Shown here: positions 4,343 through 10,532 of the stretch, in pieces
Position numbering within the stretch: position 1 is the first letter of the stretch
Layout: every line of letters starts with the position of its first letter
From: an uncultured Acidimicrobiia bacterium
GTDB lineage: Bacteria > Actinomycetota > Acidimicrobiia > Acidimicrobiales > CAIXPF01
Length of the DNA: 64,000 nt
Reading direction: 5' to 3'
Assembly (NCBI GenBank): GCA_903921205.1
Contig: CAIXPF010000095.1
Span: 2,042-66,041 of the forward strand
Translations under genes and position numbers: made by a program
Notes under the pieces: generated by a model
The model's database searches: none
Told to the model about the DNA's origin: nothing
Seen by the model: the letters and a program-made list of their open reading frames with translations, nothing else

Positions 4343-4360
4343 GGTGAACGGGAGGTGAAC
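4343..4360 (-). promoter_or_regulatory. PHO box (PhoP/RegX3 site), GTTCACC-N4-GTTCACC
   Basis: Minus strand GTTCACCtcccGTTCACC, an 11-bp direct repeat matching the Streptomyces PHO box, ~170 nt upstream of pstC. Confidence 0.8.
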
Positions 4361-4540
4361 ACCGGGCCAAGGTTGCGTGCGCGTGGCGATCGGGTCGTCA
4401 GGGGGCGCGCGACCCCGCATCGGCCCCGTGGTTGTGCCATCCTCGCAGCACGCGTCGAGGGTCCACCCCGTGAGGAACGTCCGGCGGAGGACGGGTGGCC
4501 GGCGACGCACGAGGCGGACGAGGCGGACGAGGCGAACGGC

Positions 4541-6268
4541 ATGGCGAGCACCCCGAGCCCCAGCAGCGCGCGCGGACGGTTGTCCGCGTGCATCGCCGTG
4601 CTGACGGTGCTGGTGTCCATCTGCTGGGTCGGCCTGACCCCGGCGGTGGCCGCGGCGGCGACCGTGCCCGGCCCGCCGGCGATCACCGCGCTCAGCCCGG
4701 GCAAGGCCAGCGTCACCGTCACCTGGACCGCGCCGGCCAACACCGGCGGCTCGGCCGTCACCGGCTACGTCGTCGTCCCCTACCTGGGCACCACCGCGCA
4801 GCCGGCCCGCAGCTTCGCCTCCGCCGCCACCACCCAGACCATCACCGGGCTCACCGCCGGGGCGACCTACCGGTTCAAGGTCCGCGCCCGCAACGCCGTC
4901 GGGCTGGGCACCTGGTCGGCCCTGTCAGCCACCGTCACCCCGTTCGCGACGCCCGGGGCACCCACGATCGGGACGGTCGCGGCGGCGGTCGCCAGCGTGA
5001 TCGTCACCTGGAGCGCGCCGGCGGAAACCGGCGGTTCGCCCATCACCGGCTACCTCGTGACCCCGTACCTGGGTTCCGTCGCCCAGGCCACCCGCAGCTT
5101 CGCCTCGACCGCCACCACCCAGACCATCACCGGGCTCACCAACGGGGCGACCTACCGGTTCAAGGTCCGCGCCCGCAGCGCCGTCGGGGTGGGCGCCTTC
5201 TCCGCCGCCTCGGCGGCCTCGACCCCGGTGGCGGTCGTGGCAGCACCGACCATCACCGTGTTCGGCAGCCAACCGCTCGAGTTCGGCAAGGTCGGCCTCG
5301 CCCAGCCCGACGTCAACGTCATCGGCCGGGTCAGCCCCACCGGCAGCATCCGGTCGATGACCTACGAGCTGAACGGGGCGGACCCCGTGGCGATGGGCGT
5401 CGGCCCCGACACGCGGCGGCTGACCAACCCCGGCGACTTCAACGTGGCCATCCCGGCGTCGAGCCTGCAGGTGGGGCTCAACACCGTCCGGCTGCGGGCG
5501 GTCAACACCGTCGGGGTCGCAACGGTTCGTGACGTCACCGTGCGACTCACCGGCCCGGCCCCCTGGCCACTGCCCTACTCGGTGAGCTGGGCGCCGGCGA
5601 CGAACCTGCACGCGGTGGTCCAACCGGTCGACGGCGAGTGGGCGATCTCCGGCGGGGCGGTGCGCACCCTGGAGGTCGGCTACGACCGGTTGCTCGCCGT
5701 CGGTGACGGCACGTGGACCGACTTCGAGGCGACGGTGCCGATCACGGTGCATGCGGTCGACCCGAACGGGTACACCCCGACCAGCGGTTCGCCCGGCATC
5801 GGGTTCATCACCCACTGGATCGGCCACGACACCGTCGACGCCCTCCAGCCGCACTGGGGGTTCGCCGACCGTTTCGGCGGGATCGCCTGGTACCGCTACC
5901 CGACGTCCGGCAACCGTCTCGAGCTGCGCGACGGCAAGGCCGCGCTGCTGGCCAAGGACACCACCGGCAAGACGATCACCACCGGGGTGAGCTACCTCTA
6001 CAAGGTCCGCGCCGAGAGCGGCGGAGCCGGCCAGGGACCCAAGTACCAGCTGAAGGTGTGGCCGGCGGGCACCGCCGAGCCGGCGGCGTGGGATCTCTCG
6101 GCCCGGCTGCCCGTCGGCGCGGTGGCGGCCGGATCGCTGCTGCTCGTCGCCCACCACGTGGACGCCTCGTTCGGCACCCTCCAGGTGCGGGCGCTCGGCG
6201 CCGCCGAGCTCGCCGTGAGCCGCGCCGCCGCGGACGAGGTGGTGGCCACCCCGATCCCGGAGGACTGA
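4541..6268 (+). CDS. Secreted protein with two fibronectin type III domains, an Ig-like domain and a C-terminal beta-sandwich
   Basis: Signal peptide; duplicated VTW.AP..TGGS..TGY...TITGLT.GATYRFKVRAR FN3 repeats. Start chosen at ATG 4541. Confidence 0.8.
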   Translation: MASTPSPSSARGRLSACIAVLTVLVSICWVGLTPAVAAAATVPGPPAITALSPGKASVTVTWTAPANTGGSAVTGYVVVPYLGTTAQPARSFASAATTQTITGLTAGATYRFKVRARNAVGLGTWSALSATVTPFATPGAPTIGTVAAAVASVIVTWSAPAETGGSPITGYLVTPYLGSVAQATRSFASTATTQTITGLTNGATYRFKVRARSAVGVGAFSAASAASTPVAVVAAPTITVFGSQPLEFGKVGLAQPDVNVIGRVSPTGSIRSMTYELNGADPVAMGVGPDTRRLTNPGDFNVAIPASSLQVGLNTVRLRAVNTVGVATVRDVTVRLTGPAPWPLPYSVSWAPATNLHAVVQPVDGEWAISGGAVRTLEVGYDRLLAVGDGTWTDFEATVPITVHAVDPNGYTPTSGSPGIGFITHWIGHDTVDALQPHWGFADRFGGIAWYRYPTSGNRLELRDGKAALLAKDTTGKTITTGVSYLYKVRAESGGAGQGPKYQLKVWPAGTAEPAAWDLSARLPVGAVAAGSLLLVAHHVDASFGTLQVRALGAAELAVSRAAADEVVATPIPED

Positions 6269-6311
6269 CGTCCCGGCGACCGGCACGGCGACGGTGCTCT
6301 AGAGTGCCGCG

Positions 6312-6611
6312 ATGATCGTCATCTCCGGCACCTTCACCGTCGACCCCGCTGACCGCGAGGCCTTCCTCACCGCCGCCAAGGCCGTCATGGCCGACACCCT
6401 CCTCGAGGCAGGCTGCCACGCCTACTGCTTCTCGCCGAGCGTGACCGACCCGGCCGTGGTGCACCTGTTCGAGAAGTGGGACTCCGAGGACGCCCTCGGC
6501 CCCCACATGAAGACCGACCACATCCGGGCCTTCGGCCGGGCGCTGAAGGACCTCAAGGTCCTCGGCCGCGAGATCAGCATGTACGAGGTGGCGTCCGAGA
6601 AGAAGATGTGA
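6312..6611 (+). CDS. Antibiotic biosynthesis monooxygenase (ABM) / putative quinol monooxygenase
   Basis: 99 aa with the EAGC..Y...FEKW....L..H..T.H ABM pattern. Confidence 0.85.
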   Translation: MIVISGTFTVDPADREAFLTAAKAVMADTLLEAGCHAYCFSPSVTDPAVVHLFEKWDSEDALGPHMKTDHIRAFGRALKDLKVLGREISMYEVASEKKM

Positions 6612-6709
6612 CCGTCGCGGATCCGCTGCGCTCGACGCGCACCGGACCCGCCCGATCCGCGTCCGGCCGGTACCGTGGTCGGACCTCCCGCAGAGAAAGC
6701 GAGCGTGAC

Positions 6710-7327
6710 ATGGACATCGAGTTCTGGGTCGACCCCATTTGACCGTGGTGCTGGGTGACGGCCCGTTGGGTCGTCGAAGAAGTGGCACCCGCCCGTGATC
6801 TCACGGTGCGCTGGAGGCCGATCAGCCTCCTGTTCAAGAACAACCCCGATCCGCAGAGCCCGTACTACGGGCGGGTGGTGAGCACCCACAAGATGCTCCG
6901 GGTCATGGAATCGGTGCGCGCCGCCGAGGGCGAGGGTCCCATCCAGGCCCTGTACTGGGAGATGGCGACGCGGGTCCACCACGACAAGAACGTGGATGTC
7001 CCCATGGCCGAGGTCCTCACCGCGGTCGGGCTCGACCCGGCCCACGCCGCGGCCTTCGACGACGAGAGCTGGGACGACGTCATCCGTCCGGCCCACGACG
7101 ACGGGCTGTCGCTCGTCGGCAACGACGTCGGCACGCCGATCATCGCCATCCCCGACGGCAACGGCGGCCGTATCGGCATCTTCGGCCCGGTCATCACCCG
7201 GGTTCCCACCGGCGAGCAGGCCCTGCAGCTGTGGGACGGCATGATCGCCTGTATGACCGTGCCCGGCTTCTGGGAGCTGAAGCGCACGCGGACCGAGTCA
7301 CCCGAGGTCGGGCCCCGGCCGGTCTGA
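6710..7327 (+). CDS. Probable selenoprotein: DsbA-fold Rv2466c/mycoredoxin-2-like oxidoreductase, Sec at UGA 6740-6742 (UPWC)
   Basis: MDIEFWVDPI-TGA-PWCWVTARW matches the family DPxCPWCW motif. The rest (VGNDVGTPII, FGPVITRVP, LWDG, FWELKRTR) is Rv2466c-like. SECIS-like hairpin downstream of the UGA. Confidence 0.85.
6756..6776 (+). promoter_or_regulatory. Putative bacterial SECIS hairpin
   Basis: GACGGCCC-GTT-GGGTCGTC: 8-bp stem with one G-U pair. The loop starts with G and lies 22 nt after the UGA. Confidence 0.65.
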
Positions 7328-7409: not shown

Positions 7410-8954
7410 TCACGCCGCGGCGGCCGGTTCGTCGGGGTGGCGCCGGCGAGTGGCCCAGAACACACCGGCAGCGGCCAGCGTGACCACGCCCCCGCCGATC
7501 CCCTGGGCCCGGAACCCGGCCAGCAACGCATCCTGCTCGGCTGCGGACAGGGCGACGACCTCGTCCTCGGGCAGACCGTACTGCCCGGCGGCCTGCGCCT
7601 CGGTAGCCCCCTCACGCAGGGCCCGGCTCACCTCACCGACCTCATCACGGTCGAGATCACCGGCACCGGCCCGGTCGTAGACCGACAACATGGCGGCCGA
7701 CACCAGCAGGGCCATGGAGATCACCCCGAGCGAGGTCCCCAGACTCGTCGACGCCACCCGCAGCGCCGAGACCGAACCCTCCTCGCCCGGCGCGGCCCGG
7801 CTCATGACCGCGGTCTGCAACGGCACCAGTGCCGCGCTGAGCAACCCCGAGTAGAGGCTGACCACGACGACGGGAACAACGATGGGGAGGGTCCGGCTCA
7901 GGGTGGCGCTGAGGAACAGCACGGCGGCCACGCCCACCAGGAAGCCCGTGCCGGTGGCCGTGGCGCCCTTGACCTTCACCAGGCGGCCGGACACACGGCT
8001 TCCCAGCGAGGCCGCGAGCTGCGCCGGCACGAGCAGGACGGCTGCGGCCAGGACCGACCGGCCGTAGAAGTACTGCAGCCCGACGGTCGTGTAGTACAGC
8101 AGGTTCGAGAACGGGACGAGGACCACCACCAGCAGCAGCCACCCCAGCCCGCCCCGGCGCAACGGCTCCACCGACATCGCCGGCGACGGCGACAGACGGA
8201 CTGCGACGACCAATGCCACCGACGCCACGACGACCCCGACCGCCCATCCCACGACCACGGTGGACAGCGTCTGGTCGCGACCGTACGTCTGGGCCACCTG
8301 CACCACGCAGACCAGCAGCACCCCGGCCAGGATCGGGCTGACGAGCTCACCCCGGTGCAACGCCCGCTCGTCCTGCGGCAGCAGGAACCGGACGACCAGC
8401 ACGACCGCGAACCCACTGACGGACCACAGGCCGGCGACCCACCGCCACGACGACGATGCGACGAGCAGCCCGGCGAGCACCGGTACCACCAGCAGCACCA
8501 TCGCCGTCAGCGAGTAGAGGATGCCGAAGGCGACGGGGCGTACCCCGGTGCGGGTGGTCGACGCCACCAACGCCGCCACCGCCGACACCAGCACGGCATA
8601 GCGACCGAGGCTGCACAGGACCATGCCGGCCATCACCACCTGTACCGCCGGCCCCACCGCGATCACCACACCGCCGAGGGCGTAGCCGCACCCGCCGGCG
8701 AAAAGCACCCGGCGCTGGCCGACCCGGGCCCCGAGCACACCCGCCGGGAAGATCACCAGCAGGCCGGCCATGTTCGGCAGCGCCCGGAGCAGCGAGGTCT
8801 GCGCCGCCGTCGCGTCCAGATCCGACAGCATCGGGACCAGCATGTAGTTGAACGAGCCGGGGACGACCCAGCACAGCGCGTACATGAGGGCGGCCGCCCG
8901 TACCACCCGGTTCTCGGCGTCGGTGAACCCCGAGGAGGTCAGCAGGCGAGGCAT
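7410..8954 (-). CDS. MFS transporter (14-TM DHA2-like), paralog 1
   Basis: Many hydrophobic helices; motif A-like GVLGARVGQRRV. Confidence 0.88.
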   Translation of the reverse strand: MPRLLTSSGFTDAENRVVRAAALMYALCWVVPGSFNYMLVPMLSDLDATAAQTSLLRALPNMAGLLVIFPAGVLGARVGQRRVLFAGGCGYALGGVVIAVGPAVQVVMAGMVLCSLGRYAVLVSAVAALVASTTRTGVRPVAFGILYSLTAMVLLVVPVLAGLLVASSSWRWVAGLWSVSGFAVVLVVRFLLPQDERALHRGELVSPILAGVLLVCVVQVAQTYGRDQTLSTVVVGWAVGVVVASVALVVAVRLSPSPAMSVEPLRRGGLGWLLLVVVLVPFSNLLYYTTVGLQYFYGRSVLAAAVLLVPAQLAASLGSRVSGRLVKVKGATATGTGFLVGVAAVLFLSATLSRTLPIVVPVVVVSLYSGLLSAALVPLQTAVMSRAAPGEEGSVSALRVASTSLGTSLGVISMALLVSAAMLSVYDRAGAGDLDRDEVGEVSRALREGATEAQAAGQYGLPEDEVVALSAAEQDALLAGFRAQGIGGGVVTLAAAGVFWATRRRHPDEPAAAA

Positions 8955-9002
8955 GCCGAACGGTACCGCAGGCGGGCCTGACCGCTCGCGGCGCCGGGAC
9001 CG

Positions 9003-10532
9003 TCAGTCCTCGCCGTGGCGGCGGCGGCTGACGTAGAACACCACCGCCGAGCCCAGGGTGACGACCCCGCCGCCGAGGCCCTGGGCCCGGTAGCCGCCGA
9101 CCATCGCCTTGCGGTCGATGCCCTCGAGTACCACGACCTCGCCGGTCGGGTAGTCGTACTGCGCGGCGATGTCCTCGGTCGAGTCGCCGTCGAGGATGCC
9201 GGCCATCACGTTCTGCAGCCCGGTCCGATCGGCCCCGGCGCCGCTGTGCCCGTCGTAGACCCGGTCGACACCGACGAACGCCACGGTCGACATGAACAGC
9301 ACCCCCAGCACTCCCCCGACGGCGGCTGCTGCGCCCCGGAACGCCGCTGTCGACCCTTCGCTCCCGGCGGATGCCCGGTTCATGATCGCGGTGGAGAGCA
9401 CCACCCCGACCGCGGCCGTCGACGCCCCGTAGACGCACAGCACCGCCAAGGGCGGCAGCAGCGACACGGTCGTGGTCTGCAACAGGGTGAGGAACAACGA
9501 AGCCGACGTGATCAGCAGCAGCGTCGTGCCGGCCACGGTGATCCCCTTGGCCTTGATGAACCGCTTCACGGTGCTCGCGCCGGCCACCGCCGCCGCTTGG
9601 GGCGGGACGAGCCACAACGCCGCCCCCAGCGACGACTTGCCGTAGAGGTACTGCAGGCCGACCGTCGTGTAGTACCAGAGGTTCGAGAACGGGACCAGCA
9701 CCACCACCAGCAACAACAGCGTCAGGCCACCACCCCGCAGGGCGTCGAGCGACAACGACGGCGACGGCAACCGACGCAGCAGCACCACCAGCGCCGACGA
9801 CGAGACCACCAGCAGCACGGCCCACACCAGCGCCAGGACCGACGCAGCATCGCCCCGGCCGACGACCGACACGAACTGCACCAGTGCGGTCAACGCCAAA
9901 CCGGCCAGCACCGGCGTCCACAGCTCCCCCTCCACCAGGCGCCGGTCGCCGTCGGGCGGCAGCAACCGGCGGGCCAGCACCACCCCGATGCCGGCCAGCA
10001 CCCATGCACCGGCCATCACTCGCCAGGACACCACGGTCAGCGCCACGCCGGCCAGCACCGGCACCGCCAGGTAGCTCGCCGGTGACATCGTGCCGAAAGC
10101 GGAGAAGGCCACCGGCCGGGCGCCCTCCCGCCCCGTGGCCTCGGCGAGCAGGGCCACGACGACGATGAACATCGCCGAGCGCCCCACGCTCACCAACAAC
10201 TGCCCGACGATGGCCACCGCCATCGCCGGCGCGACGAGCACCAGCGCCGAGCCGGTCGCCATGAGCACCCCGGTACCGAGCAGGAACCGCCTCGGCCCCA
10301 CCATACGGCCGAGTACGCCGGCGGGGAAGATGGCCAGCAGGCTGCCGATGTAGGGGACCGCCCGGACCAGCGACCGGCCGGTTCCGGTCGCGCCCAGATC
10401 GGCCAGCATCGGCAGCAGCATGAGCGTGGTGGACGCCGACGAGAACAGCGCCATGAGGGCCATCAGACAGGCCGCTCGCAACACCCGGTTCTCGTCGTCG
10501 GTGAGTTCGCCCCGCGTGATCAGCCTCGGCAC
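9003..10532 (-). CDS. MFS transporter, paralog 2
   Basis: GVLGRMVGPRR; colinear with the neighbouring paralogs. Confidence 0.88.
   Translation of the reverse strand: MPRLITRGELTDDENRVLRAACLMALMALFSSASTTLMLLPMLADLGATGTGRSLVRAVPYIGSLLAIFPAGVLGRMVGPRRFLLGTGVLMATGSALVLVAPAMAVAIVGQLLVSVGRSAMFIVVVALLAEATGREGARPVAFSAFGTMSPASYLAVPVLAGVALTVVSWRVMAGAWVLAGIGVVLARRLLPPDGDRRLVEGELWTPVLAGLALTALVQFVSVVGRGDAASVLALVWAVLLVVSSSALVVLLRRLPSPSLSLDALRGGGLTLLLLVVVLVPFSNLWYYTTVGLQYLYGKSSLGAALWLVPPQAAAVAGASTVKRFIKAKGITVAGTTLLLITSASLFLTLLQTTTVSLLPPLAVLCVYGASTAAVGVVLSTAIMNRASAGSEGSTAAFRGAAAAVGGVLGVLFMSTVAFVGVDRVYDGHSGAGADRTGLQNVMAGILDGDSTEDIAAQYDYPTGEVVVLEGIDRKAMVGGYRAQGLGGGVVTLGSAVVFYVSRRRHGED

What the first reader, a model, noticed from the sequence alone, without database searches (positions are those of the whole stretch)
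6710..7327. Hidden selenoprotein: UPWC form of an Rv2466c/mycoredoxin-2-like DsbA-fold enzyme with a SECIS-like hairpin
Seen: ATG 6710, after a purine-rich tract, reads MDIEFWVDPI, then TGA (6740-6742), then PWCWVTARW in the same frame to 7327 (205 aa). The ORF track splits this into two ORFs. An 8-bp hairpin with a G-initiated loop (GACGGCCC-GTT-GGGTCGTC) lies 22 nt after the UGA. Known: mycobacterial Rv2466c (mycothiol-dependent reductase) uses a CPWC motif, Sec replaces the attacking Cys of CxxC motifs, and bacterial SECIS elements lie just 3' of the UGA with a G in the apical loop. Inference: this is a Sec-containing mycothiol-linked oxidoreductase. Sec use is uncommon in Actinobacteria, and pipelines would truncate this gene or call it a pseudogene.
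Basis: partly seen in the sequence, partly recalled or inferred. Interest (0 to 1): 0.85.

Follow-up and report, generated by a model that had tools for sequence, protein, structure and literature searches.

The report
Selenocysteine form of Rv2466c-like oxidoreductase
This gene very probably encodes a real selenoprotein, a small cytoplasmic redox enzyme whose reactive cysteine is replaced by selenocysteine, and public gene catalogues cut it short, although selenoproteins of this general DsbA-like kind are already known.

Summary
ATG 6710 opens a 205-codon frame with one in-frame TGA (6740-6742), and ORF callers split it in two.

The TGA is very probably selenocysteine:
- It aligns with the first Cys of CPWC in Cys homologues, and recurs there in 14 relatives' genomes and 76 further public loci, almost all Acidimicrobiia.
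- The hairpin at 6757-6775 meets all four published bacterial SECIS criteria. It is 95% paired across 76 distinct sequences, with compensatory changes, and its codons are frozen at synonymous sites. Cys forms lack it.
- The genome has selA, selB, selC and selD, plus Sec-type SelD and FdhA-like genes.
- Three independent DNA runs and one RNA run read TGA.

The protein is Rv2466c-like (Pfam 146 bits; model TM 0.77-0.84 to Rv2466c). Public databases hold 190-aa truncations starting after the TGA.

Caveats:
- "DsbA-like, UxxC" selenoproteins have been catalogued since 2005, so this is a new member of a known kind.
- Sec machinery is common in this order (SelA in 30 of 41 genomes).
- The mycothiol link is inferred: MshD passes its cut-off, while MshA, MshC and Mtr fall below theirs.
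- Selenium incorporation itself is untested.

The parts
6692..6703 (+). Purine-rich tract (agagaaagcgag) 7-18 nt upstream of the ATG; likely ribosome-binding region
   Evidence: Read directly. Function inferred, not tested. An RNA-library contig begins at 6693, but contigs cannot show a transcript start.
6710..7327 (+). Complete coding sequence of the selenoprotein: 205 residues, U at residue 11, stop TGA at 7325-7327. Rv2466c-like DsbA-fold oxidoreductase.
   Evidence: Translation. Pfam PF22234 scores 145.8 bits (cut-off 27) over residues 10-192, and PF01323 scores 40.7 bits (cut-off 25.6). PDB Rv2466c entries match at E about 1e-40. AlphaFold model pLDDT 96.3, and the top 10 PDB fold matches are all Rv2466c or its M. 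leprae homologue, TM 0.77-0.84.
6740..6742 (+). In-frame TGA read as selenocysteine (U11), at the position of the first (attacking) Cys of the CPWC motif
   Evidence: It aligns with TGC/TGT (Cys) in 16 of 16 Cys-form loci and with TGA in 14 of 14 Sec-form loci from relatives. It is TGA in 76 further homologous loci. No difference at this place in contigs of 3 DNA runs from 3 studies and 1 RNA run. In the model it lies between strand 2-7 and helix 12-29.
6749..6751 (+). TGC, Cys14, the second (resolving) residue of the UPWC motif
   Evidence: Nearly invariant in alignment A5. TGC/TGT vary freely among Sec forms (47 versus 28 of 75), so this codon is constrained at protein level only.
6755..6757 (+). 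GTG (Val16) that gene callers take as a false start, giving the truncated 190-aa product
   Evidence: ORF 6755..7327. Database relatives begin MTARWVV or VTARWVV.
6757..6775 (+). Bacterial SECIS hairpin: 5' arm 6757-6764 (GACGGCCC), apical loop 6765-6767 (GUU), 3' arm 6768-6775 (GGGUCGUC)
   Evidence: It meets the four bSECIS criteria quoted: loop 3 nt, stem 8 bp, G first in the loop followed by U, 22 nt from UGA to loop, and -13.9 kcal/mol for the 30-nt core. 95.4% of 608 cells are paired in 76 distinct sequences, 0 of 500 shuffles reach this, 3 pairs show double changes, and slid registers give 16.6-57.7%. Cys forms are 46.1% paired, equal to the shuffle. Synonymous sites of codons 16-22 are frozen.

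Best explanation
Window 6710-7327 is one gene for a cytoplasmic selenoprotein of 205 residues. It is an Rv2466c (mycoredoxin-2)-type DsbA-fold thiol-disulfide oxidoreductase whose active site reads U-P-W-C instead of C-P-W-C.

How it is made (shown by sequence and comparison): the UGA at 6740-6742 is recoded as selenocysteine. The hairpin at 6757-6775, whose apical loop G-U-U starts 22 nt after the UGA, is the bacterial SECIS. It would be bound by SelB carrying Sec-tRNA(Sec). The genome encodes selC, selA, selB and selD.

How it works (inferred from the characterised homologue): Sec11 sits at the N-terminus of helix 1, the position of the attacking Cys of the thioredoxin-fold CxxC motif. As a selenolate it attacks a mixed disulfide on a substrate, most likely an S-mycothiolated protein or small molecule. 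It forms either a Se-S mixed intermediate or a selenenylsulfide with Cys14. It is then re-reduced by mycothiol, mycothione reductase and NADPH.

My odds are about 0.9 that UGA is Sec, about 0.5 that the reductant is mycothiol, and lower for any particular substrate. Within this subfamily Sec and Cys have been exchanged many times, and this genome keeps a CPWC paralogue beside the Sec gene.
For: (1) Sec/Cys pair. The TGA aligns with the first Cys of CPWC. It is TGA in 14 of 14 orthologue loci from 14 of the 41 genomes searched, at 51-94% identity to the window's protein. That covers all 7 same-genus genomes plus 6 from other genera or families. It is TGC/TGT in 16 of 16 other family loci. Of the 80 loci delivered, 76 are true homologues with the frame open to normal length where the locus allows, almost all titled Acidimicrobiia or Acidimicrobiales.

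(2) The ten codons before the TGA are conserved as protein (xDIEFWVDPI) with synonymous variation. In the model they form strand 2-7 of the fold.

(3) SECIS. All four published criteria are met. 97.1% of cells are paired in 13 distinct relatives and 95.4% in 76 distinct sequences. Double changes occur at 3 pairs in 11 cells, with 0 of 500 shuffles as high. Examples are GC to CG or UA at pair 4, and a wholly different but fully paired stem in L072. Cys forms are 46.1% paired against 45.7% for shuffles.

(4) Synonymous sites. Codons 16-22 have normalised codon entropy 0.15-0.35. The rest of the gene averages 0.68 over 106 codons and the upstream codons 0.77. The two degenerate codons between the UGA and the stem vary freely.

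(5) Machinery. tRNA-Sec scores 66.2 bits (cut-off 47) and ARAGORN calls anticodon tca. SelA scores 328.8 bits, SelB 280.7 (cut-off 242.25) and SelD 344.3.

(6) The machinery is in use elsewhere. SelD reads GAG-TGA-ACK, and a molybdopterin oxidoreductase reads NRT-TGA-HAPSV.

(7) Co-occurrence. 14 of 14 genomes with the TGA form have SelA over its cut-off, against 16 of 27 without it. These genomes are kin and not independent.

(8) Not an error. Contigs of 3 DNA runs from 3 studies and 1 RNA-library run show no difference at 6740-6742.

(9) Family and fold.

(10) Mechanism of the homologue. [quoted passage not shown]

(11) Mycothiol genes. MshD scores 204.9 bits, over its cut-off of 163.1. MshA, MshC and Mtr each give a single clear best hit well above their paralogues.
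Against: No direct evidence exists that selenium is incorporated or that the protein is made. The RNA evidence is two assembled contigs from one metatranscriptome, which cannot show translation and could include DNA.

Taken alone, the hairpin is only mildly unusual: z = -2.06, 8 of 200 shuffles fold as well, and 4.5% of synonymous recodings fold as well. Its 3-nt loop is at the lower limit of the published model. The stem overlaps the conserved peptide VTARWVV, so part of its conservation comes from the protein; the synonymous-site test addresses this.

The main SelB match covers only model positions 2-339 of 581, with a separate small match at 539-577.

For the mycothiol link, MshA (405.9 versus 462.5), MshC (416.5 versus 485.1) and Mtr (541 versus 635.65) all fall below NCBIfam's equivalog cut-offs. 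The three paralogues tested score about equally against Rv2466c (131-148 bits), so none is a clear orthologue. No conserved neighbour points to a partner; the neighbours are shared in only 2 of 89 Sec-form loci.

Frequent Sec/Cys switching (at least 23 changes on the tree) shows that Sec is not indispensable for the fold's function.
Confidence: 0.85

Rival explanations
1. The TGA is a true stop. The real product is the 190-aa protein from GTG 6755, as public gene callers annotate it, and the upstream frame is a short leader peptide or untranslated.
For: This is how the closest database entries are called: 21 of the 120 best hits are truncated, 20 of them starting [M/V]TARWVV. A GTG lies 13 nt after the TGA.
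Against: A 190-aa product would lack strand 1 and the first redox residue of a fold that is otherwise complete. The ten upstream codons are conserved as protein and in frame in 90 loci. Full-length Cys forms at 60-68% identity begin MDIEFWVDPICPWC. The covarying hairpin and frozen synonymous sites have no role under this reading. The TGA form was found only in genomes with SelA, 14 of 14.
Confidence: 0.03
2. The TGA is a nonsense mutation (pseudogene), or an assembly or sequencing error for TGC/TGT.
For: A single base separates TGA from TGC/TGT. Cys forms of the same subfamily exist, one in this genome at C183.
Against: The same TGA is found in 14 relatives' genomes and 76 further loci at 30-94% identity, with the downstream frame intact. 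Contigs of four runs from four studies read TGA. The rest of the gene shows purifying selection.
Confidence: 0.01
3. It is a genuine selenoprotein, but not mycothiol-linked. It acts as a general cytoplasmic disulfide reductase or isomerase of the FrnE/DsbM type, recycled by thioredoxin reductase or another low-molecular-weight thiol, or as a reductase of a small-molecule substrate.
For: After the Rv2466c entries, the next fold matches are FrnE, DR2335 and the cytosolic reductase DsbM. MshA, MshC and Mtr candidates score below equivalog cut-offs. There is no conserved neighbour. The genome carries four family members with different motifs, one UPWC, one CPWC and two CPWA, which suggests divided roles.
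Against: The only characterised members of PF22234 are mycothiol-dependent (and the search-listing abstract of PMC8280269). Fold similarity to Rv2466c (E about 1e-16, TM about 0.8) is far above that to FrnE-type proteins (E about 1e-6). MshD passes its cut-off, and MshA, MshC and Mtr each give one hit far above their paralogues.
Confidence: 0.35

Closest known systems
Rv2466c / mycoredoxin-2 of Mycobacterium tuberculosis and its M. leprae homologue (PDB 4NXI, 4ZIL, 5XUR, 4WKW; Pfam PF22234)
   Same: Same Pfam family (145.8 bits). Full-length sequence match at E about 1e-40. Same fold, TM 0.77-0.84 at 34-38% identity. Same motif position and spacing (xPWC) after strand 1. The frame opens directly with strand 1, so I read it as cytoplasmic; no signal-peptide predictor was run.
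   Different: The first motif residue is Sec, not Cys. The host is an aquatic Acidimicrobiia bacterium, not a mycobacterium. Mycothiol dependence is untested here. It is one of four paralogues, and the three tested score about equally against Rv2466c.
Catalogued 'DsbA-like' bacterial selenoproteins: Sargasso Sea DsbA-like (COG2761, UXXC, 9 sequences); GOS DsbA 1, 2 and 3; 'DsbA-like protein form 1 (PF01323, UxxC)' and 'form 2 (DxxUP)' of the 2026 review
   Same: PF01323 is matched over its cut-off. The motif is UxxC, and the local sequence D-P-I-U-P also fits DxxUP. JGI labels several Cys homologues 'predicted DsbA family dithiol-disulfide isomerase'; that this is the COG2761 name is my recollection. 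Marine and freshwater metagenomes are the habitat in both cases.
   Different: I could not compare sequences. The representative accessions are not retrievable with these tools and supplements are closed. None of the passages I read mentions Rv2466c, mycoredoxin, mycothiol, PF22234 or Acidimicrobiia for these families. The species named for DsbA-like selenoproteins in 2006 are Anaeromyxobacter, Desulfovibrio and Desulfotomaculum.
Consensus bacterial SECIS (bSECIS) model of Zhang and Gladyshev, as summarised in PMC13188914 section 5
   Same: Hairpin immediately 3' of the UGA inside the coding region. Apical loop 3-9 nt (here 3), upper stem 4-16 bp (here 8), G in the first two loop positions followed by G or U (here GUU; variants GGU and A-GGU-G), 16-37 nt from UGA to loop (here 22), and MFE at or below -7.5 (here -13.9).
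   Different: The loop is at the minimum length. No Rfam family matches it. SelB binding is not tested.
NCgl2478 of Corynebacterium glutamicum (CPFC motif, 'DsbA-Mrx1 cluster', mycothiol-dependent thiol-disulfide reductase)
   Same: DsbA-annotated cytoplasmic reductase with a C-P-aromatic-C motif. 64 of the 99 full-length Cys relatives of the window's protein carry CPFC.
   Different: I saw only the search listing and the start of the abstract and made no sequence comparison. The window's protein has UPWC.

Membership tests
Bacterial selenoprotein gene (UGA-Sec with bSECIS) | In-frame UGA aligned with Cys in homologues (a Sec/Cys pair), with a conserved frame on both sides | tested here: met
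   TGA in 14 plus 76 loci. TGC/TGT in 16 loci, and CPWC or CPFC in 99 full-length database proteins.
Bacterial selenoprotein gene (UGA-Sec with bSECIS) | Stem-loop meeting the bSECIS model: loop 3-9 nt, stem 4-16 bp, G in the first two loop positions, 16-37 nt from UGA to loop, MFE at or below -7.5 kcal/mol | tested here: met
   Criteria read. Here: loop 3 nt (GUU), 8 bp, 22 nt, -13.9 kcal/mol.
Bacterial selenoprotein gene (UGA-Sec with bSECIS) | Genome encodes selC, selA, selB and selD | tested here: met
   tRNA-Sec 66.2 bits, anticodon tca; SelA 328.8 bits; SelB 280.7, over 242.25; SelD 344.3.
Bacterial selenoprotein gene (UGA-Sec with bSECIS) | Selenium shown in the protein (75Se labelling or mass spectrometry) | not testable with these tools
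Rv2466c-like / mycoredoxin-2 (Pfam PF22234) | Match to the family profile over its gathering score, along the whole domain | tested here: met
   145.8 bits against 27, residues 10-192 on profile positions 1-180 of 180.
Rv2466c-like / mycoredoxin-2 (Pfam PF22234) | DsbA-like fold (thioredoxin domain with inserted helical domain) superposable on Rv2466c | tested here: met
   Model pLDDT 96.3, pTM 0.91. The ten best PDB matches are all Rv2466c or the M. leprae homologue, TM 0.77-0.84, E 3e-16 to 3e-14, with the next match at 9e-7.
Rv2466c-like / mycoredoxin-2 (Pfam PF22234) | C-P-W-C active-site motif at the N-terminus of helix 1 | tested here: met
   The motif is U-P-W-C at residues 11-14, just before helix 12-29, aligned with CPWC of 4WKW. 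The first residue is Sec instead of Cys, which is the variant feature.
Rv2466c-like / mycoredoxin-2 (Pfam PF22234) | Reduction by mycothiol, mycothione reductase and NADPH (mycothiol dependence) | tested here: inconclusive
   Only the precondition could be tested. MshD is over its cut-off. MshA, MshC and Mtr give clear single best hits but score below the equivalog cut-offs. Enzyme activity cannot be tested here.
Catalogued 'DsbA-like' selenoprotein (form 1: PF01323, UxxC; Sargasso/GOS DsbA) | PF01323 domain with Sec in a UxxC motif | tested here: met
   PF01323 scores 40.7 bits against 25.6, and the motif is UPWC. The family definition was read.
Catalogued 'DsbA-like' selenoprotein (form 1: PF01323, UxxC; Sargasso/GOS DsbA) | Sequence relatedness to the catalogued representatives | not testable with these tools
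   The representative records named cannot be fetched here, and supplementary tables are closed.

The most novel reading that the evidence does not exclude
This would be the first recognised selenoenzyme of the mycothiol redox system: a Sec-containing mycoredoxin-2. It is widespread in aquatic Acidimicrobiia, carries one conserved SECIS, has been switched between Sec and Cys many times, and is often kept beside a Cys paralogue. If so, selenium supply would tune thiol-redox repair in abundant freshwater and marine Actinomycetota. The clade would also be distinct from the 'DsbA-like' selenoproteins catalogued so far, and is systematically mis-annotated as a 190-aa fragment.
Probability: 0.3. Interest if true: 0.55.

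Novelty: new member of a known kind. Interest (0 to 1): 0.36.

Why it matters
There are three reasons, one practical and two biological.

Practical: public gene catalogues hold this protein as a 190-aa fragment without its catalytic residue, across a whole class of abundant aquatic bacteria. NCBIfam has no model for it. From recall, automatic annotation places Sec only where a curated selenoprotein model exists, so I expect it will keep truncating the gene.

Biological, the pathway: it ties a catalogued but functionally uncharacterised selenoprotein type (DsbA-like, UxxC) to a biochemically studied enzyme, Rv2466c or mycoredoxin-2. That gives a concrete, testable function, namely selenium-accelerated reduction of mycothiol mixed disulfides. 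I found no paper linking selenocysteine to that pathway.

Biological, the evolution: there are about 90 Sec forms with one covarying SECIS, at least 23 Sec/Cys switches on the tree, and a Sec/Cys paralogue pair within one genome. This makes a good natural data set for studying when Sec is worth its cost.

It is not a new kind of system. The recoding mechanism, the type of SECIS and the idea of Sec in a UxxC thioredoxin-fold motif are all textbook.

Tried and rejected
- Rfam scan of 6600-7000 at E up to 10 gave four chance-level matches and no SECIS family. Rfam has no model for this hairpin.
- NCBIfam scan of the protein gave no family at E up to 0.01.
- Lower stem. The single-sequence fold adds a lower stem (6747-6753 with 6783-6789). 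The folds of the 14 relatives differ outside the 8-bp hairpin, so I do not claim it.
- Conserved operon partner. The four neighbours are an fn3 protein, an ABM monooxygenase and two MFS transporters. They recur only in the two closest same-genus loci, 2 of 89. Rejected as a functional clue.
- Orthology to Rv2466c. The Sec gene, the CPWC paralogue and one CPWA paralogue score 141.7, 147.8 and 131.2 bits against 4NXI, so no orthologue can be singled out. The fourth family member (C202) was not tested.
- Pseudogene, sequencing error and true-stop readings were rejected for the reasons given under the rivals.
- Alternative genetic code (TGA as Trp or Gly) was rejected. The homologous residue is Cys, the gene itself ends in TGA, and 56 of the 80 scanned frames end at TGA.
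- Literature. 'Rv2466c' with 'selenocysteine' gave 0 papers. 'selenoprotein' with 'Acidimicrobi' gave 3 papers; only the Actinomarina preprint is on Sec use in this class, and it never mentions DsbA. 'selenoprotein' with 'mycothiol' gave 24 papers. I saw the titles and abstract starts of 12, and none describes such a protein. The BSepDB and deep-Sep papers have no occurrence of 'DsbA', 'Actinobacteria', 'Actinomycetota' or 'Acidimicrobi' in their main text.
- Supplementary tables of Peng 2016 and the Sargasso and GOS papers may list members of this very clade. I could not see them.
- The primary Rv2466c paper (Rosado 2017) is not held. Its mechanism is cited from a review's passages.
- The class-level sample was run without loci, so the TGA positions in its 7 '1 TGA' genomes were not checked individually.
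Full report
OBSERVATION. After a purine-rich tract (6692-6703), ATG 6710 opens MDIEFWVDPI. TGA follows at 6740-6742. The same frame continues PWCWVTARW... to the stop TGA at 7325-7327, giving 205 residues. The mechanical ORF list splits this into 6476..6742 and 6755..7327, the latter starting at a GTG. The hairpin GACGGCCC-GUU-GGGUCGUC lies at 6757-6775. Its stem starts 14 nt after the UGA and its loop 22 nt after. Taken alone, the hairpin is not striking in this G+C-rich DNA. Folding 6740-6790 gives -22.9 kcal/mol with z = -2.06, and 8 of 200 shuffles fold as well. Among 2000 synonymous recodings of the 45 nt after the UGA, 4.5% fold as well. The case therefore rests on comparison.

WHAT THE PROTEIN IS. 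Read through, the protein matches Pfam PF22234 (Rv2466c-like) at 145.8 bits over the whole 180-position profile. It matches PF01323 (DSBA) at 40.7 bits. NCBIfam has no model for it. It matches the four PDB sequences of Rv2466c and its M. leprae homologue at E about 1e-40 over residues 4-199, with its xPWC on their CPWC. An AlphaFold model built on 37 sequences has pLDDT 96.3 and pTM 0.91. Its ten best PDB matches are all those proteins (TM 0.77-0.84, E 3e-16 to 3e-14). The next matches are FrnE and DR2335 at about 1e-6. Residue 11 sits between strand 2-7 and helix 12-29, the classical place of the attacking residue of a thioredoxin-fold CxxC motif. The frame opens directly with strand 1, so I take the protein to be cytoplasmic, like Rv2466c; no signal-peptide predictor was run.

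IS THE TGA SELENOCYSTEINE? There are eight lines of evidence.

(a) Sec/Cys pair. In 41 genomes of the same order (own included), 14 carry an orthologue at 51-94% identity with one in-frame TGA. That includes all 7 same-genus genomes and 6 from other genera or families. In all 14 the TGA is the codon aligned with the first Cys of CPWC. The 16 other family loci fetched read TGC or TGT there.

(b) Breadth. Of the 80 loci delivered, 76 are true homologues. The 4 rejected are L054, L080, L102 and L103. The homologues have the frame open for about 190-210 codons after the TGA wherever the locus reaches that far. Nearly all are titled Acidimicrobiia, Acidimicrobiales or genera of that class. They include a distant branch at about 30% identity (seven loci, several titled as the Candidatus genus Poriferisocius) and one MAG labelled delta proteobacterium at 37%.

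(c) The ten codons before the TGA are kept as protein while varying at synonymous sites.

(d) SECIS. A 2026 review gives four criteria for the bacterial SECIS: loop 3-9 nt; upper stem 4-16 bp; G in the first two loop positions, usually followed by G or U; 16-37 nt from UGA to loop; and MFE at or below -7.5 kcal/mol. The hairpin meets them with 3 nt, 8 bp, GUU, 22 nt and -13.9 kcal/mol.
- Across the 14 relatives, 97.1% of pair cells are paired.
- Across 90 sequences (76 distinct), 95.4% of 608 cells are paired. Three pairs carry double changes, in 11 cells. No shuffle out of 500 reaches the observed pairing or covariation. Slid registers give 16.6-57.7%.
- Examples of compensation: GC to UA (L030, L071), GC to CG (L031, L092), GC to AU at the base (L118), and a wholly different but fully paired stem in L072.
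- The loop is GUU, GGU or A-GGU-G.
- The 16 Cys-form loci pair at 46.1% in the same columns, no better than shuffles at 45.7%.

(e) Synonymous sites. In 75 Sec orthologues, the six degenerate codons of the stem (codons 16-19, 21 and 22) have normalised codon entropy 0.15-0.35. The mean is 0.68 for 106 codons downstream and 0.77 upstream. The two degenerate codons between the UGA and the stem vary freely, at 0.55 and 0.95. Selection therefore acts on the RNA exactly where the hairpin lies.

(f) Machinery. tRNA-Sec scores 66.2 bits against a cut-off of 47, and ARAGORN calls tRNA-SeC with anticodon tca. SelA scores 328.8 bits, SelB 280.7 (cut-off 242.25) and SelD 344.3. The system is in use elsewhere. 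SelD itself reads GAG-TGA-ACK, and a molybdopterin oxidoreductase reads NRT-TGA-HAPSV. From recall, those are the known Sec positions of SelD and FdhA.

(g) Co-occurrence. All 14 genomes with the TGA form have SelA over its cut-off. Of the 27 without it, 16 do and 11 do not. These genomes are related, so I give counts and no test.

(h) Not an error. The stretch is held by 20 public runs from 14 studies, in river, drinking-water, lake, estuary and seawater metagenomes. Contigs of three DNA runs from three studies and of one metatranscriptome show no difference at 6740-6742. The only differences are 6810 G>A in all four (Arg34 to His, the residue of the nearest relative) and two near the 3' end in one run. 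The RNA-library contigs cover 6693-7059 and 7050-7311, that is, both sides of the TGA. Being contigs, they show presence only.

HOW DATABASES TREAT IT. Among the 120 best of 1964 hits in the 5.8-billion-protein collection, the closest relatives (66-94% identity) are 176-193 aa. Twenty of them begin MTARWVV or VTARWVV, that is, at the GTG after the TGA. Where named, they are called 'hypothetical protein' or 'disulfide bond formation protein DsbA'. The other 99 are full-length Cys forms, 64 with CPFC and 35 with CPWC, at up to 68% identity.

EVOLUTION. A FastTree of 200 rows was built with the Sec/Cys column masked. It held 83 Sec forms and 117 Cys forms; 7 Sec loci cut by a contig end were left out. 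The tree needs at least 23 changes of state, and at least 8 are forced by well-supported branches. The shuffled mean is 63.8. Sec and Cys have therefore been exchanged repeatedly. The window's gene lies in a supported 13-row clade of 9 Sec and 4 Cys forms, which also holds this genome's own CPWC paralogue (C183, 56% identity). That paralogue keeps the 5' arm of the hairpin but has a disrupted 3' arm. It shows 6 of 8 aligned pairs and no hairpin in its MFE fold. The direction of the changes cannot be read from an unrooted count. The near-identical SECIS throughout the main clade suggests, as an inference, one old origin and many losses. In an even sample of 150 other genomes of the class, 14 have a close homologue (E up to 1e-50). 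Seven of these have one TGA in the match and seven have none; positions were not checked individually.

FUNCTION. This part is inference. [quoted passage not shown] It takes electrons from mycothiol and mycothione reductase and uses a monothiol-disulfide mechanism. By homology the window's enzyme should do the same, with a selenolate as the attacking group. It is established chemistry that Sec in such motifs is a better nucleophile and leaving group than Cys. The precondition is partly met. MshD passes its cut-off (204.9 against 163.1). MshA (405.9 against 462.5), MshC (416.5 against 485.1) and Mtr (541 against 635.65) each give one hit far above their paralogues, but below the equivalog cut-offs. 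The neighbouring genes give no help. They are an fn3 protein, an ABM monooxygenase and two MFS transporters, and they are shared by only 2 of 89 Sec-form loci. The genome has four family members, with UPWC, CPWC, CPWA and CPWA motifs. The three tested score about equally against Rv2466c.

COMPARISON WITH WHAT IS KNOWN. Selenoproteins of the 'DsbA-like' type with a UxxC motif are already catalogued:
- Nine sequences, assigned to COG2761, in the Sargasso Sea.
- Four proteins in complete genomes in 2006, in Anaeromyxobacter, Desulfovibrio and Desulfotomaculum.
- DsbA 1, 2 and 3 in the GOS data, with 63, 18 and 5 Sec sequences.
- 45 proteins in 41 organisms in 2016.
- 'Form 1 (PF01323, UxxC)' and 'form 2 (DxxUP)' in a 2026 review.

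The window's protein fits these definitions by domain and motif. I could not compare sequences with their representatives, because the accessions cannot be fetched and supplements are closed. None of the passages read links these families to Rv2466c, mycoredoxin, mycothiol or Acidimicrobiia. A search for 'Rv2466c' with 'selenocysteine' found no paper. The one paper found on Sec use in this class, the Actinomarina preprint, reports the machinery and a Sec-type SelD but never mentions DsbA. SelA is present in 30 of 41 genomes of the order sampled, and the 2006 survey already counted Actinobacteria among the selenoprotein-rich phyla.

VERDICT. This is a real and well-supported selenoprotein gene, correctly spotted from raw sequence, and public gene catalogues cut it short. 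It is a new member, possibly a new branch, of a known kind, and not a new kind of system. The parts that may be new are its identity as an Rv2466c/mycoredoxin-2-type enzyme, its spread through Acidimicrobiia with one conserved SECIS, and its frequent Sec/Cys switching. Selenium incorporation and mycothiol dependence remain to be shown. Interest is 0.36.

Noticed in passing
G000:C67:41127-42080 (-), locus L018: The genome's selenophosphate synthetase SelD has one in-frame TGA in the motif GAG-TGA-ACK. From recall, this is the Sec/Cys position of SelD, so SelD is itself a selenoprotein here.
   Followed up: partly
G000:C169:2991-4265 (+), locus L188 position 1729: A molybdopterin oxidoreductase (PF00384, 225.9 bits) has one in-frame TGA in NRT-TGA-HAPSV. 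From recall, this is the Sec position of formate dehydrogenase alpha subunits, so it is probably a third selenoprotein gene of this genome.
   Followed up: partly
G000:C183:14078-14701, locus L185: A CPWC paralogue (207 aa, 56% identical) of the Sec gene lies in the same genome and in the same supported tree clade. It keeps the 5' arm of the hairpin but not the 3' arm (6 of 8 aligned pairs), which may be a decayed SECIS. Two more distant CPWA members are at C137 and C202.
   Followed up: partly
Loci L077, L089, L098, L115, L122, L128, L129; and L056: A distant branch of the family (about 30% identity, N-terminus MSEPITFYFDPL-U-PWCW), several loci titled as the Candidatus genus Poriferisocius, also has TGA at the same codon, with a bulged version of the hairpin. 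One MAG labelled delta proteobacterium has a 37%-identical Sec form with a different 5-bp hairpin. Sec therefore occurs in several branches of PF22234.
   Followed up: partly
Loci L054, L102 (titled Latescibacterota) and L103: The motif scan also hit short frames reading C-x-G-C-D-P-x-TGA-P-W-C-W followed by a stop after 10-13 codons. They have no homology to the family. They may be chance, or lie within another gene's frame.
   Followed up: no
window 6810: All four public runs laid read A instead of G (Arg34 to His), the residue found in the nearest relative. This is a population variant and has no bearing on the TGA.
   Followed up: yes
window 4355-6611 and 7410-10532: The neighbours are a 637-aa protein with fibronectin type III domains, a 99-aa ABM (antibiotic biosynthesis monooxygenase) family protein just upstream on the same strand, and two MFS transporters on the opposite strand. 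This arrangement is conserved only in the two closest same-genus genomes.
   Followed up: yes
Genomes G001-G040 (same order): SelA is over its cut-off in 30 of 41 genomes of the order sampled, so Sec decoding is common in this lineage.
   Followed up: yes
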